From NCBI GenBank assembly GCA_945952315.1, contig CAMFIE010000011.1:51638-115637 (forward strand): a DNA stretch of 64,000 bases. Reading direction: 5' to 3'. How positions within the stretch are numbered: position 1 is the first letter of the stretch; each line of letters begins with the position of its first letter. The stretch is from an uncultured Rhizobium sp. (GTDB lineage Bacteria; Pseudomonadota; Alphaproteobacteria; Rhizobiales; Rhizobiaceae). Shown one piece after another: positions 25,839-32,891 of this stretch. The notes below the pieces were generated by a model that did not search any database, was not told where the DNA came from, and worked only from the letters and a program-made list of their open reading frames with translations. Made by a program: the position numbers and the translations under genes.

Positions 25839-25874
25839 AAAACGTTTTCAACGCAAAATATAAACGTTTTTATT
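25839..25874. promoter_or_regulatory. Pair of LacI-type operator palindromes (AAAACGTTTT and aATATAAACGTTTtTATt) with 22-bp centre-to-centre spacing, in the promoter of the amino-acid SBP / SDR / tri-domain / GH42 unit
   Basis: Perfect 10-bp palindrome at 25839..25848; 18-bp near-palindrome at 25857..25874 with CG centre. Same core (TAAACGTTT) and same 22-bp spacing as the pair at 32860..32891. Confidence 0.45.
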
Positions 25875-25914
25875 CCGGATTTCGCTTTCTTGTCTCCCGA
25901 TGGCGAAAGCGTGC

Positions 25915-26943
25915 TCAGCGGGTAAGACGGTCGTCGCAGCGCTCGATCAGCTCGGGCATGATGAGAGCCTGCAGCGCCTCGGGCGGCTCGCCTTCCATGC
26001 GGCGCAGGATGAAACGTCCGAGCAGCTCGCTCGGCTGATGGATGGGCAGGAAATAGGTGGTGATCGGCGGCGAAAAATACTGGCTGACATTGAGATCGTC
26101 CGTCGCATTGATCACCGCATCGCGGCCATGCACCAGCCCCTTTTCGTGAAAGCCGGAGAAAGCCCCGAGCGCGGAGGCTTCGTTGGCGCAGATATAGGCG
26201 GTCGGCGGATCGGCAAGCGCTGCCATGGTCAACACGCATTCCCGCCCGAAGGCTGGTGTCAGCGCGCCATGGGCAACGAGCGCCGGATCAAAGTCCAGCC
26301 CCGAGGCCTGAAGCGCCACCCGGTAGGCATGAAACCGGGTCATCGCATAGGCAAGATCACCCATCGGATTGACGAGTGCGATGCGGCGATGGCCGCGCGT
26401 GGCGAGCCGGGCCACCGATCGGCGGATCATCTGCTCATTGTCTGCGTCCACATAGGCATGCGGCGCATTGCGGATCGTGGTGCCATAGGTGACGAAGGGA
26501 AAATCCTTCTCCTGCATGATCTCGACGCGCGGATCATGGCCGCGTGTGCCGGAAATGATGATCCCGTCTGCCTTGCGGAACGTGACGATCTGGCGGATCG
26601 TTTCCAGACTTTCCTCGAAATTGCGCACCGCATAGAGCGCAACACGATAGGGGCTTTCATCCAGCGCCCAGGAAATGCCGCTGAGCAGCTGGGCATATTC
26701 CACGCCTTCCCATTCATTCTGCTTCGGACCCGGTGCCGTCATGATCGCGGCGACCTGATAGGTCTTGCCGGTGCGTAGCTGCACGCCATGCATGTTCAAC
26801 TGATAGCCGACCCGCTCGGCGGCAGCGGAAATCAGCGCCCGGGTTTCCGGTCGCACCTGCGGCGAGCCTTTCAGTGCCTTCGACACCGTGGCGATGGAAA
26901 GGCCGGTCTCCTGCGCGATGGTCTTGATCGTCGGTCTCTGCAT
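25915..26943 (-). CDS. LacI-family transcriptional repressor
   Basis: N-terminal HTH TIKTIAQETGLSIATVSKALKG; periplasmic-binding-protein-like sugar-binding core; 342 aa. Confidence 0.85.
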   Translation of the reverse strand: MQRPTIKTIAQETGLSIATVSKALKGSPQVRPETRALISAAAERVGYQLNMHGVQLRTGKTYQVAAIMTAPGPKQNEWEGVEYAQLLSGISWALDESPYRVALYAVRNFEESLETIRQIVTFRKADGIIISGTRGHDPRVEIMQEKDFPFVTYGTTIRNAPHAYVDADNEQMIRRSVARLATRGHRRIALVNPMGDLAYAMTRFHAYRVALQASGLDFDPALVAHGALTPAFGRECVLTMAALADPPTAYICANEASALGAFSGFHEKGLVHGRDAVINATDDLNVSQYFSPPITTYFLPIHQPSELLGRFILRRMEGEPPEALQALIMPELIERCDDRLTR

Positions 26944-26954
26944 GACACTGCTCG

Positions 26955-31668: not shown

Positions 31669-31687
31669 TTTCTCTCCTCCCTTGGGA

Positions 31688-32836
31688 TCAGGCAACACGC
31701 CTGCCCCTGTGCTGATTGATGAGTGCTTCGGTTTCCGGATCGAGGCGGCGGGGCAGCGCCTGCCCTTCGGCATCGAACACGTGGATATGGGCGCCGGGGA
31801 GTGCCAGATGCACCACCTCACCGACGCGGACCGGATGCGTGCCACGCACATTCGCAAGCAGATCGCGACCGTCCGAAAGCTTCACATGCACATGGCTTTC
31901 CACGCCGAGCCGTTCGACCAGTTGCACCAGACCCTTCAAATGCCCCTCGCCTTCCGGAACGATCTCCACCTGATCGGGGCGAATGCCGATGGTTGCGGAT
32001 GAACCCGGTTCCGGCATCGCATCCGCCGCGATTTCCGCTGTCACGGGTCTCAGCAGGCCGGGCCCGCCAAGCAGGAGCAGGTCGCCATCCATGCACTGCA
32101 CTTCGGCCTCCAGAAGGTTCATGGAAGGCGAACCGATGAAGCGGGCGACAAACAGATTGGCCGGTCGATAGAAGAGCTCGAGCGGCGAGCCGAACTGGCT
32201 GACCCGGCCCTTGTCGAGCACCACAACCCGGTCAGCGAGCGTCATCGCCTCGACCTGGTCATGGGTGACGTAGATCATCGTGGTCTTCAGCCGCTCATGC
32301 AGGGCGGCCAATTCCGCACGCATGGTCACGCGCAGGCCCGCATCGAGATTGGAGAGCGGCTCGTCAAGCAGGAAAAGCTTCGGTTCGCGCACGATGGCGC
32401 GGCCGATGGCCACCCGCTGCCGCTGGCCGCCGGAAAGCTGGCGCGGCTTGCGGGCCAGAAGCTCGCGGATGCGCAGGATATCGGCTGCCGCCTCCACCCG
32501 GCGGTTGATCTCGTCGCGCTTCATGCCATTGAGCGCCAGCCCGAAGGAGAGGTTCCGCCGCACATCCATATGCGGATAAAGCGCATAATTCTGGAACACC
32601 ATGGCAATGTCGCGCTTTGCGGAAGGAAGATCGGTAATGTCCCGTTCGCCCAGCCGGATCGTACCGTCACCGAGTGTTTCGAGACCGGCAATCGAACGCA
32701 GAAGCGTGCTCTTGCCGCAGCCCGAAGGTCCGAGAAAGCAGATGAATTCCCCATCCTCGATGGAAAGATCGATGCCTTTCAGCACGCCCAGCGCACCAAA
32801 GCTCTTGCGGAGCCCGCTGATCTCAACCGACGCCAA
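31688..32836 (-). CDS. Sugar ABC transporter ATP-binding protein (MalK/UgpC type)
   Basis: Walker A GPSGCGKST, signature LSGGQRQRVAIGRA, Walker B LFLLDEPLSNLD, C-terminal TOBE domain. Likely TTG start at 32836 (gives MASVEISGL, 5 nt after GGGAGG) rather than the GTG at 32854. Confidence 0.8.
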   Translation of the reverse strand: MASVEISGLRKSFGALGVLKGIDLSIEDGEFICFLGPSGCGKSTLLRSIAGLETLGDGTIRLGERDITDLPSAKRDIAMVFQNYALYPHMDVRRNLSFGLALNGMKRDEINRRVEAAADILRIRELLARKPRQLSGGQRQRVAIGRAIVREPKLFLLDEPLSNLDAGLRVTMRAELAALHERLKTTMIYVTHDQVEAMTLADRVVVLDKGRVSQFGSPLELFYRPANLFVARFIGSPSMNLLEAEVQCMDGDLLLLGGPGLLRPVTAEIAADAMPEPGSSATIGIRPDQVEIVPEGEGHLKGLVQLVERLGVESHVHVKLSDGRDLLANVRGTHPVRVGEVVHLALPGAHIHVFDAEGQALPRRLDPETEALINQHRGRRVA

Positions 32837-32859
32837 AGGCACCTCCCAATGCACCTTGT

Positions 32860-32891
32860 TAAACGTTTATGGCACCAAATATAAACGTTTA
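32860..32891. promoter_or_regulatory. Two copies of the perfect palindrome TAAACGTTTA spaced 22 bp centre to centre, directly upstream of the ATPase gene; predicted binding sites of the locus LacI repressor
   Basis: 32860..32869 and 32882..32891 are both TAAACGTTTA; located 25 to 55 bp upstream of the predicted start of the first gene of the minus-strand transporter operon. Confidence 0.45.

What the first reader, a model, noticed from the sequence alone, without database searches (positions are those of the whole stretch)
25839..32891. Same paired operator architecture (TAAACGTTT cores, 22-bp spacing) in both promoter regions of the locus
- Upstream of the transporter ATPase gene there are two perfect TAAACGTTTA palindromes (32860..32869, 32882..32891), centres 22 bp apart.
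- Between the LacI gene and the amino-acid SBP gene there is AAAACGTTTT (25839..25848) and an 18-bp near-palindrome around TAAACGTTTTTA (25857..25874), again 22 bp apart.
- A CG-centred A/T-rich palindrome of this kind fits LacI-family operators.

The duplicated architecture suggests the single LacI protein represses both units, possibly cooperatively with two dimers on the same DNA face (22 bp is about two helical turns).
Basis: seen in the sequence. Interest (0 to 1): 0.6.

Follow-up and report, generated by a model that had tools for sequence, protein, structure and literature searches.

The report
Conserved paired LacI-family repressor operators
Two pairs of short DNA palindromes in front of two neighbouring gene clusters are real, evolutionarily conserved binding sites of the kind used by LacI-type repressors; the design is well known, but here it links an unusual set of sugar- and amino-acid-degrading genes.

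Summary
AAACGTTT occurs exactly four times in the 64-kb window (0.37 expected), as two pairs with 22-bp centre spacing: upstream of the sugar ABC/GH/lacI operon (M1) and upstream of the amino-acid ABC/SDR/kinase-lyase operon (M2). In 74 related loci plus S. meliloti pSymB (1.56 Mb), 160 of 175 exact cores lie within 330 bp upstream of three modules or of a stand-alone lacI, although gene order is shuffled. The third module is a GH42 beta-galactosidase. Pair spacing is always 20-22 bp. The LacI recognition helix and hinge leucine are invariant down to 58% identity, and a 52% paralogue changes helix and site flanks together. At M1, O1 fills the spacer/-10 of a conserved TTTACA-16-TATATT promoter and O2 covers the predicted start. 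At M2 the promoter lies inside the operator block. Stand-alone sites are near-perfect 16-bp palindromes, whereas most paired sites are less symmetric, which fits cooperative binding but does not prove it. Double LacI-family sites at 21-22 bp are already described (RafR, ScrR). Verdict: a new member of a known kind, strongly supported by comparison and untested by experiment. Side lead: the gene content suggests catabolism of glycosylated hydroxylysine.

The parts
32879..32894 (-). M1 operator O1 (promoter-distal), AGTTAAACGTTTATAT on the minus strand
   Evidence: Exact core. Consensus AAGTTAAACGTTTtTAT across 31 loci. Lies in the spacer and overlaps the -10 of the predicted promoter.
32857..32872 (-). 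M1 operator O2 (promoter-proximal), CCATAAACGTTTAACA on the minus strand; mirror image of O1
   Evidence: Exact core. Consensus ATAtAAACGTTTAAC. Centre is 22 bp from O1 and 28.5 bp upstream of the TTG start at 32836; covers the predicted transcription start (inferred).
32878..32905 (-). Predicted sigma-70-type promoter of the M1 operon: TTTACA (32905-32900), 16-nt spacer, TATATT (32883-32878)
   Evidence: 10 of 12 match. CTTTACA is conserved in the Rhizobium, Shinella, Ensifer/Sinorhizobium, Pseudovibrio and Maritalea M1 promoters, but not in the Rhodobacterales loci. No TSS data.
31688..32836 (-). MalK/UgpC-type ABC transporter ATPase, first gene of M1
   Evidence: Pfam ABC_tran, OB_MalK and TOBE_2. 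NCBIfam UgpC/MalK. TTG start after GGGAGG; the same start appears in orthologues.
30433..31668 (-). Sugar-type solute-binding protein (SBP_bac_1/8)
   Evidence: ATG at 31668 with a GGAGG ribosome-binding site and a signal peptide.
29468..30406 (-). ABC permease 1
   Evidence: BPD_transp_1.
28663..29475 (-). ABC permease 2
   Evidence: BPD_transp_1.
26955..28658 (-). MGH1-like (GH63-related, clan GH-G type) glycoside hydrolase
   Evidence: PF22422, E = 5e-46. Weak matches to glucosylglycerate and mannosylglycerate hydrolases.
25915..26943 (-). LacI-family repressor (342 aa), last gene of M1, 11 bp after the GH stop
   Evidence: LacI HTH plus Peripla_BP domains. Recognition helix TGLSIATVSKAL and hinge Leu56 are invariant in 69 orthologues. 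No C-terminal extension beyond the PurR-like core.
25858..25873 (-). M2 operator O1, ATAAAAACGTTTATAT on the minus strand
   Evidence: Exact core. Invariant block in the 14-locus footprint. Consensus ATAAAAACGTTTATAT.
25836..25851 (-). M2 operator O2, TTGAAAACGTTTTTAA on the minus strand
   Evidence: Exact core. Consensus TTGAAAACGTTT.TATTcct. Centre is 22 bp from O1 and 109.5 bp upstream of the ATG at 25734.
24979..25734 (-). Amino-acid-type solute-binding protein (SBP_bac_3; Lys/Arg/Orn-like), first gene of M2
23277..24959 (-). 560-aa amino-acid ABC permease
   Evidence: BPD_transp_1 in the C-terminal half. Full length conserved in relatives.
22592..23296 (-). SDR-family oxidoreductase
19546..22635 (-). 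Tri-domain fusion: APH-type kinase, M23 domain and class-III aminotransferase-fold phospho-lyase-like domain (PRK06148)
   Evidence: C-terminal domain versus human ethanolamine-phosphate phospho-lyase 6TOR, E = 2e-136. The true start codon is uncertain.
17410..19473 (-). GH42 beta-galactosidase (module M3). It has no operator of its own in this window and is probably read through from M2
   Evidence: PF02449, E = 1e-150. A single ATATAAACGTTTAtAT site precedes it in 38 of 54 related loci. None is present in the window's 72-bp gap.

Best explanation
The four palindromes are operators of the LacI-family repressor encoded at 25915-26943. The repressor binds as a dimer to a 16-bp CG-centred palindrome, ideally ATATAAACGTTTATAT, with the hinge-helix leucine (L56) inserting at the central CpG. 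At the sugar-transporter/hydrolase/lacI operon (M1), O1 lies between the -35 (TTTACA) and the -10 (TATATT) and overlaps the -10, and O2 covers the transcription start. Bound repressor therefore excludes RNA polymerase or blocks its escape. At the amino-acid-transporter/SDR/kinase-lyase operon (M2), the promoter lies inside the operator block, probably with O1 over the -35 and O2 over the spacer/-10, giving the same outcome. Two dimers 20-22 bp apart (about two helical turns) sit on the same DNA face and probably help each other bind, which would compensate for half-sites that are individually imperfect. An inducer, expected to be a glycoside taken up by the M1 transporter or a product of it, releases the repressor and switches on both operons. 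In this genome the GH42 beta-galactosidase comes on by read-through from M2. Shown: the presence, enrichment and conservation of the sites, and their co-occurrence and co-variation with the regulator. Inferred: binding, promoter positions, repression, cooperativity and inducer identity.
For: - Enrichment: exactly 4 cores in 64 kb, all at the two promoters, against 0.37 expected. No other PWM hit in the window.
- Conservation: in 1.56 Mb from 76 loci, 160 of 175 exact cores lie within 330 bp upstream of M1, M2, M3 or a stand-alone lacI. Nine of the other 15 have the same promoter architecture, leaving about 6 as background.
- Sites follow modules, not synteny. Ensifer/Sinorhizobium order is SDR-KinAT, pair, M1-lacI, single site, GH42. 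Rhizobium order is M1-lacI, pair, M2, single site, GH42. Some genomes have M2-lacI-GH42 without M1, and Shinella keeps promoter plus O1 directly before lacI.
- Footprint: in 14 M2 promoters only the block from O1 to about 12 bp past O2 is conserved; the flanks are not.
- Regulator: Pfam LacI HTH plus sugar-binding domains. Orthologues are at least 60% identical, and the next paralogues in plasmids are about 32%. The N-terminal 60 residues are 45% invariant against 26% for the rest, and helix TGLS-ATVSKAL and L56 are invariant. The 52% Pseudovibrio paralogue has LSVGTVSRAL and a different site, ATACAAACGTTTCAAT.
- Promoter: TTTACA-16-TATATT, 10 of 12; CTTTACA is conserved in most M1 promoters.
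- Spacing: M1 is 21 bp in 21 loci, 20 bp in 8 and 22 bp in 2. M2 is 22 bp in 13 and 21 bp in 4. No other values occur.
- Symmetry: stand-alone M3 sites are 14.7 of 16 self-complementary. Paired sites are about 10-11 of 16, except M2 O1 at 13.9.
- Literature: CG-centred even palindromes are the family norm, 72% of LacI-family TFs are autoregulated, inter-site distances peak at 22 bp, and RafR and ScrR regulogs have only double sites at 21-22 bp (PMC4052901).
Against: - There are no binding, footprinting, TSS or expression data for this organism or any orthologue.
- No strict sigma-70 match was found at M2, so operator-promoter geometry there is inferred only from the footprint.
- Pairing is not obligatory for this regulator. 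M3 and the M1 promoters of distant taxa have single sites, and spacing drifts between 20 and 22 bp, so cooperative contact is not demonstrated.
- M2 O1 is nearly as symmetric as the stand-alone sites (13.9 of 16), which weakens the 'weak sites need cooperativity' argument for M2.
- The protein lacks the C-terminal tetramerisation segment of E. coli LacI, so any dimer-dimer contact would need another surface.
- The bare core AAACGTTT is shared with other LacI-family operators. Paired cores occur next to unrelated LacI genes in metagenomes, so cross-talk with paralogues cannot be excluded.
- In S. meliloti 1021 a published TSS assigned to lacI maps inside the GH gene, so lacI may not depend solely on the M1 promoter.
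Confidence: 0.85

Rival explanations
1. The sites are operators of this LacI, but the two dimers bind independently. One site blocks polymerase binding and the other adds a second, additive block, so the roughly 21-bp spacing reflects only the geometry of promoter elements (-35, -10, +1), not protein-protein contact.
For: Spacing varies from 20 to 22 bp among lineages. The regulator works with single sites at M3 and in distant taxa. There is no tetramerisation segment. The 21-bp step roughly matches the distance from spacer centre to +1 or to the -35, so promoter geometry alone could fix it. M2 O1 is already a good palindrome (13.9 of 16).
Against: Most paired sites are less symmetric than stand-alone ones (about 10-11 versus 14.7 of 16), as expected if cooperativity compensates for weak sites. 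The M1 pair is mirror-symmetric as a whole (O1 is the reverse complement of O2). Family-wide inter-site distances peak at 22 and 32 bp, which the authors interpret as cooperative binding.
Confidence: 0.3
2. The motif is bound by a different regulator, either another LacI-family paralogue or a global carbon regulator, and not by the adjacent LacI.
For: The AAACGTTT core is generic to many LacI-family operators. Paired cores occur next to unrelated LacI genes (25-31% identity) in metagenome contigs. Rhizobiales carry about 15 LacI-family TFs per genome.
Against: Sites co-occur with this orthologous group in every lineage examined, including sites directly before a stand-alone lacI. The DNA-reading helix is invariant while the rest of the protein diverges, and the nearest paralogue changes helix and site flanks together. 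No other copy of the motif exists in the 64-kb window, although it contains other sugar-transporter clusters.
Confidence: 0.07
3. The paired palindromes act at the nucleic-acid level, as a hairpin, cruciform or intrinsic terminator, rather than as protein-binding sites.
For: Two identical palindromes 22 bp apart also form a long inverted repeat. The terminator scan flags a 14-pair stem at 32858-32893 followed by TTTTGTTG on the plus strand.
Against: The T-run is on the plus strand, where no gene runs into it; on the transcribed minus strand no T-run follows. O1 overlaps the -10, so most of the stem would not be transcribed. Conservation is per site (core invariant, spacer free) and single-site versions exist. 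The M2 pair is head-to-tail. There is no Rfam match, and the M2 leader fold is no better than shuffles (z = 0.17).
Confidence: 0.02
4. The similarity is chance, AT-rich promoter composition, or a recent duplication of one promoter region.
For: Promoter regions in GC-rich genomes are locally AT-rich. The two regions share an extended stretch, AAACGTTTATATTT.
Against: 0 of 100 shuffles give 4 cores. Flanks outside the operators are unrelated. The sites are conserved across genera at 58-87% LacI identity, while the surrounding intergenic DNA is not.
Confidence: 0.01

Closest known systems
RafR (raffinose repressor, Enterobacteriales) and ScrR (Burkholderiales) regulogs with double operators
   Same: LacI-family repressors whose operators occur as two CG-centred palindromes 21-22 bp apart at the promoter, interpreted as cooperative binding of two dimers (PMC4052901). 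The pairs here are 20-22 bp apart and overlap promoter elements.
   Different: Those regulogs are reported to have only double sites. This regulator also uses single sites, at GH42 and at the M1 promoter in distant taxa. The protein is not an orthologue of either, since NCBIfam gives no equivalog hit. The target genes are different.
PurR and CcpA operator-repressor complexes (structural paradigm for LacI-family dimers)
   Same: A dimeric repressor without a tetramerisation domain, a 16-bp even palindrome with a central CpG, and a hinge-helix leucine (L56 here, aligned with LacI L56 and PurR L54). The PurR operator also has an AAACGTTT centre (own knowledge). PDB matches to CcpA and PurR span nearly the whole length.
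   Different: About 25-30% identity only. The outer half-site bases (ATAT) and helix residues (I17, A18, K22 in LacI numbering) differ. PurR and CcpA are global regulators with corepressors, whereas this is a local, presumably inducer-released repressor.
E. coli LacI with O1/O2/O3 looping
   Same: A family member that represses by occupying the promoter/start region and uses more than one operator for tight repression.
   Different: E. coli LacI is a tetramer through a C-terminal helix and loops DNA over 92 and 401 bp. This protein ends at the core domain, and its sites are adjacent, about two helical turns apart.
7CE1/7CDV 'LacI-type transcription factor' (closest solved structure; to my recollection SghR of Agrobacterium, not verified here)
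   Same: Best PDB match over residues 2-330 (E = 1e-43). It is an alphaproteobacterial local LacI-type repressor solved with DNA.
   Different: A distant paralogue, not an orthologue. Its operator and regulon were not compared here.
RegPrecise LacI-family regulogs of Rhizobiales and Rhodobacterales (Ravcheev et al. 2014)
   Same: The same kind of inference (comparative-genomic regulon) and the same motif class. Many 'Sugar utilization' regulogs are named only by locus tag.
   Different: No regulog under SMb20967 or neighbouring tags appears in the held supplementary tables. One file was truncated, and the entry OG2516_10476 could not be mapped, so prior cataloguing cannot be excluded.

Membership tests
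LacI/GalR-family repressor-operator system | Regulator with an N-terminal LacI-type HTH and a periplasmic-binding-protein-like effector domain | tested here: met
   PF00356, PF00532 and PF13377 on the 342-aa protein. Near full-length PDB matches to CcpA, PurR and RbsR.
LacI/GalR-family repressor-operator system | Operator is an even palindrome of 16-22 bp with a central CG | tested here: met
   16-bp consensus ATATAAACGTTTATAT with an invariant central CG. This is the family norm according to PMC4052901.
LacI/GalR-family repressor-operator system | Hinge-helix leucine that inserts at the central CpG | tested here: met
   L56 in NMHGVQLRTG is invariant in 69 orthologues. Its role is taken from established PurR and LacI structures.
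LacI/GalR-family repressor-operator system | [quoted passage not shown] | tested here: met
   Site centres are 28.5 and 50.5 bp (M1) and 109.5 and 131.5 bp (M2) from the start codons. O1 overlaps the predicted -10. lacI lies within the locus.
LacI/GalR-family repressor-operator system | The protein binds the operator specifically and is released by a small-molecule effector | not testable with these tools
   Needs EMSA or footprinting and ligand assays. Only indirect support exists, from co-occurrence and helix/site co-variation.
Obligate double-operator LacI regulogs (RafR/ScrR type) | Two sites 21-22 bp apart, centre to centre | tested here: met
   22 bp at both promoters in the window. 20-22 bp in 48 paired promoters of related loci.
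Obligate double-operator LacI regulogs (RafR/ScrR type) | Only double sites occur in the regulog | tested here: not met
   GH42 has a single site in 38 loci. The M1 promoters of Rhodobacterales, Pseudovibrio and Maritalea have single sites.
Obligate double-operator LacI regulogs (RafR/ScrR type) | Cooperative binding of two dimers | not testable with these tools
   Indirect only: the spacing constraint and the weaker symmetry of most paired sites.
Tetrameric, loop-forming LacI (E. coli lac type) | C-terminal tetramerisation helix | tested here: not met
   The protein is 342 aa. The NCBIfam PurR model aligns to residues 5-335, PDB PurR chains likewise, and E. coli LacI aligns only to 4-313. There is no extension.
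Intrinsic terminator or structured RNA element | Stem-loop followed by a T-run in the direction of transcription, or a match to a known RNA family | tested here: not met
   The T-run is only on the non-transcribed plus strand. No Rfam hit. The leader fold has z = 0.17.

The most novel reading that the evidence does not exclude
The operators define a regulon for a so-far undescribed bacterial pathway that degrades glycosylated hydroxylysine (Glc-alpha1,2-Gal-beta-hydroxylysine, the collagen glycoside) or a closely related glycosylated amino alcohol. In this reading one LacI-type repressor coordinates the whole route. A sugar-type ABC importer takes the compound up. A GH63-like alpha-glucosidase and a GH42 beta-galactosidase strip the sugars. 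A Lys/Arg/Orn-type ABC importer takes up the free amino acid. A fused kinase/phospho-lyase, the same domain pair as animal hydroxylysine kinase and phosphohydroxylysine phospho-lyase, breaks down the hydroxylysine. Paired operators would give tight, switch-like control. The same regulon appears in Pseudovibrio, Maritalea and Rhodobacterales loci as well as in rhizobia.
Probability: 0.25. Interest if true: 0.65.

Novelty: new member of a known kind. Interest (0 to 1): 0.35.

Why it matters
For regulation, this is a clean, well-conserved example of adjacent double operators in the LacI family. It offers natural variation in spacing (20, 21 and 22 bp), in orientation (mirror versus tandem) and in number (single versus paired) within one orthologous group. 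That makes it a convenient system for testing whether dimeric LacI-family repressors without a tetramerisation domain really cooperate across two helical turns.

For metabolism, the operators link genes that annotation alone would not connect: a sugar transporter with an alpha-glucosidase-like hydrolase, a beta-galactosidase, an amino-acid transporter, and a kinase/phospho-lyase fusion. This gives a concrete, testable hypothesis for the function of the widespread PRK06148 fusion proteins and of S. meliloti SMb20966-SMb2097x.

Tried and rejected
- Loose 10-mer search with 2 mismatches: not enriched. The exact 8-mer core is the informative signal.
One hit was this regulon, and several lay beside unrelated LacI genes. 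It shows that core plus spacing is generic, but it gives no frequency estimate.
- Rfam over the whole window: nothing.
- GC-rich hairpin in the M2 leader: not better than shuffles (z = 0.17), so rejected as a feature.
- Terminator reading of the M1 pair: the T-run is on the wrong strand, so rejected.
- RegPrecise and literature look-up for a named regulog: none found under SMb2096x-2098x. OG2516_10476 could not be mapped to L054.
- S. meliloti TSS atlas: no TSS is recorded for the operon promoter (SMb20972), so my promoter placement could not be tested. Only a TSS assigned to lacI inside the GH gene was found, and its -35 is not conserved in the window.
- Strict sigma-70 scan at M2: no hit. 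The promoter was inferred from the footprint only.
- Kinase-domain searches (PDB, NCBIfam, protein database): only generic APH and homoserine-kinase-like matches and one source-named 'hydroxylysine kinase' at 37% identity. This is not enough to fix the substrate.
- Literature searches for a bacterial glycosyl-hydroxylysine pathway: nothing found.
- Second lacI copies without sites (L011, L015) and LacI loci without modules (L048, L049): examined and not informative.
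Full report
**Observation**

TAAACGTTTA lies at 32860-32869 and 32882-32891. AAAACGTTTT lies at 25839-25848. The 18-mer AATATAAACGTTTTTATT lies at 25857-25874 and is self-complementary at 16 of 18 positions. Both centre-to-centre distances are 22 bp.

The 8-mer AAACGTTT occurs four times in the 64-kb window, only at these places. The expectation is 0.37, and none of 100 shuffles reaches four. A weight matrix built from related loci finds nothing else in the window. The looser 10-mer with two mismatches is not enriched, so the signal is the exact core and its clustering.

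**Genes**

All relevant genes are on the minus strand.

- **M1 operon:**
  - MalK/UgpC-type ATPase (31688-32836, TTG start after GGGAGG)
  - sugar-type binding protein (30433-31668)
  - two permeases
  - MGH1-like (GH63-related) hydrolase (26955-28658)
  - LacI-family gene (25915-26943), 11 bp after the hydrolase stop
- **M2 operon:** the second pair of sites begins 41 bp after the lacI stop codon, followed by:
  - Lys/Arg/Orn-like binding protein (24979-25734)
  - 560-aa permease
  - SDR
  - 1029-aa fusion of an APH-type kinase, an M23 domain and a class-III aminotransferase-fold domain
- **M3:** a GH42 beta-galactosidase (17410-19473), 72 bp after the fusion gene and with no site of its own.

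**Comparative evidence**

A search with the LacI protein returned 74 loci from Rhizobium, Shinella, Ensifer/Sinorhizobium, Mycoplana, Rhodobacterales, Maritalea and Pseudovibrio at 51-87% identity. I added S. meliloti pSymB. In these 1.56 Mb there are 175 exact cores:

| Location of exact core | Count |
|---|---|
| Within 330 bp upstream of M1 | 72 |
| Within 330 bp upstream of M2 | 37 |
| Within 330 bp upstream of M3 | 38 |
| Within 330 bp upstream of a stand-alone lacI | 13 |
| Unassigned, but same promoter architecture | 9 |
| Background | about 6 |

Gene order differs between lineages, yet the sites stay with the modules:

- Rhizobium: M1-lacI, pair, M2, single site, GH42.
- Ensifer/Sinorhizobium: SDR-fusion, pair, M1-lacI, single site, GH42.
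- Some genomes: pair, M2-lacI-GH42, with no M1.
- Several Shinella: only the M1 promoter with O1 directly before lacI.

GH42 lacks an exact-core site in 16 of 54 loci. In most of these it directly follows another regulon gene; a few carry a degenerate core instead. A 14-locus alignment of M2 upstream regions is conserved only from O1 to about 12 bp past O2, and again at the ribosome-binding site.

**Regulator-motif assignment**

- The orthologous group is sharply bounded. Plasmid hits are either at least 60% identical or about 32% and below.
- Among 69 orthologues, the first 60 residues are 45% invariant against 26% for the rest.
- The recognition helix TGLS(I/T/V)ATVSKAL and hinge Leu56 never change.
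- The 52% paralogue in Pseudovibrio has LSVGTVSRAL, and the site before its gene is ATACAAACGTTTCAAT. Helix and flanks change together.
- A CG-centred even palindrome is the family norm, and 72% of LacI-family regulators are autoregulated (PMC4052901).

**Architecture**

- **M1.** The minus strand carries TTTACA-16 nt-TATATT (10 of 12), and CTTTACA is conserved in most M1 promoters. O1 (32879-32894) fills the spacer and overlaps the -10. O2 (32857-32872) covers the predicted start.
- **M2.** No strict sigma-70 match is found and nothing upstream of O1 is conserved. The promoter must therefore lie within the operator block. The best candidate is TTTATA (right arm of O1), about 18 nt of spacer, then TATATT (TTTAAT in the window) at the right arm of O2. 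O1 would then sit on the -35 and O2 on the spacer/-10.
- **Consequence.** The two regions share core and spacing but are shifted by one site relative to the promoter.
- **Orientation.** M1 O1 (AAGTTAAACGTTTtTAT) is the reverse complement of M1 O2 (ATAtAAACGTTTAAC), a mirror pair. M2 O1 (ATAAAAACGTTTATAT) and M2 O2 (TTGAAAACGTTT.TAT) are head-to-tail.

**Cooperativity**

Pair spacing is always 20, 21 or 22 bp: M1 has 21 loci at 21 bp, 8 at 20 bp and 2 at 22 bp, and M2 has 13 at 22 bp and 4 at 21 bp. That is two helical turns, plus or minus about 34 degrees.

Stand-alone sites are near-perfect palindromes (14.7 of 16 self-complementary). Paired sites score 10.1, 10.4, 13.9 and 11.1. This is as expected if weak sites are compensated by neighbour contacts, although M2 O1 is an exception.

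Ravcheev et al. report family-wide inter-site peaks at 13, 22 and 32 bp, and regulogs (RafR, ScrR) with only double sites at 21-22 bp, which they interpret as cooperative binding.

Three points argue against a strict requirement:

- The regulator also uses single sites.
- Spacing drifts between lineages.
- The protein has no C-terminal tetramerisation segment.

I rate cooperative binding at roughly even odds against independent binding.

**Rivals**

- **Different regulator.** The core is generic, and paired cores occur beside unrelated LacI genes in metagenomes. This reading is unlikely given the co-occurrence and co-variation data.
- **Hairpin or terminator.** The T-run is on the untranscribed strand, single-site versions exist, Rfam is empty, and the M2 leader fold is unremarkable.
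- **Chance or duplication.** Excluded by enrichment and cross-genus conservation.

**Caveat on autoregulation**

In S. meliloti 1021, SMb20966 is the GH42 gene and SMb20967 is the lacI gene. The published TSS atlas lists a high-coverage start assigned to SMb20967 (PMC3616915, supplement). By coordinate offset it falls about 110 nt upstream of the lacI ATG, inside the hydrolase gene. lacI may therefore also have its own promoter. Its -35 is not conserved in the window. No TSS is recorded for the operon promoter, so my placement is untested.

**Known or new**

The design is known: a local LacI-family repressor, a CG-centred palindrome, and double sites at about 22 bp. I found no named regulog for this orthologous group in the held RegPrecise tables. 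One file was truncated, and one entry could not be mapped. I class the finding as a new member of a known kind.

**Side lead**

- The fusion's C-terminal domain is a close relative of human ethanolamine-phosphate phospho-lyase (6TOR, E = 2e-136) and of a bacterial phospho-lyase (5G4I).
- Its kinase domain belongs to the APH/type II homoserine kinase group, and one 37% relative is source-named hydroxylysine kinase.

Add a GH42 beta-galactosidase, a Lys/Arg/Orn-type importer and a sugar importer, all under one repressor, and the set fits catabolism of Glc-Gal-hydroxylysine. I found no such bacterial pathway in the literature. This is a hypothesis, at about 25%.

Noticed in passing
window 17410-32836 (whole regulon); loci L001-L075: The gene set under the shared operator is a GH63-like hydrolase, a GH42 beta-galactosidase, a sugar ABC importer, a Lys/Arg/Orn-type ABC importer, an SDR, and a kinase/phospho-lyase fusion. 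This fits degradation of Glc-alpha1,2-Gal-beta-hydroxylysine (the collagen glycoside) or a similar glycosylated amino alcohol. No such bacterial pathway was found in the literature searches.
   Followed up: partly
window 19546-22635 (-): A 1029-aa tri-domain protein (APH kinase, M23 peptidase-like domain, class-III aminotransferase fold; NCBIfam PRK06148 'hypothetical protein'). The C-terminal domain matches human ethanolamine-phosphate phospho-lyase at E = 2e-136. The role of the central M23 domain is unexplained.
   Followed up: partly
L075 about 6889 (S. meliloti; corresponds to pSymB about 1197522 in strain 1021); window about 27054: The published S. meliloti 1021 TSS atlas assigns a high-coverage transcription start to the lacI gene SMb20967. 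By coordinate offset it maps about 110 nt upstream of the ATG, inside the 3' end of the hydrolase gene. This would be an internal promoter for the repressor. The CTTGCC -35 is not conserved in the window.
   Followed up: partly
L075 5625-6794: In S. meliloti strain Ak57 the lacI orthologue appears frameshifted near its C-terminus and carries no protein annotation, while the paired and single operators are intact. This is either a possible natural constitutive variant or a sequencing error.
   Followed up: no
L002, L004, L008, L017, L018, L020, L041, L042, L065 (Shinella), about 60 bp upstream of lacI: These genomes keep the CTTTACA promoter and operator O1 directly in front of lacI, but the transporter and hydrolase genes of M1 are gone and O2 is degenerate or lost. 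This looks like an operon deletion that left an autoregulated repressor still controlling M2 elsewhere.
   Followed up: partly
L011 and L015 (second copies in R. lusitanum SEMIA 4060 and Rhizobium sp. NPDC092011): These genomes carry a second lacI copy (84% identical to the window protein, same recognition helix). It has no operator and none of the modules within 10 kb.
   Followed up: partly
L067-L070 (Pseudovibrio), site at about 9935: A 52% paralogue with an altered recognition helix (LSVGTVSRAL) has a single site with different flanks (ATACAAACGTTTCAAT) before its own gene, followed by an amino-acid binding protein. This may be a natural specificity switch (K22 to R together with a flank change).
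   Followed up: partly
window 25735-25800 (-): A GC-rich stem (GGGGTGGGG...CCCACCCC) lies just before the ribosome-binding site of the amino-acid binding protein. Its folding energy is no better than shuffled sequence (z = 0.17), and the leader is not conserved in relatives.
   Followed up: yes
window 33004-37168 (-): Immediately upstream of the M1 promoter lies another transporter cluster (an SBP_bac_8 binding protein, a mandelate racemase/enolase-family enzyme and a second MalK-type ATPase). It carries no copy of the motif and is apparently a separate regulon.
   Followed up: no
window 10651-12048 (-): A 465-aa regulator with an XRE-type HTH, an M78 peptidase-like domain and a ScfRs domain (short-chain fatty acyl-CoA regulator type). 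It is unrelated to the finding.
   Followed up: no
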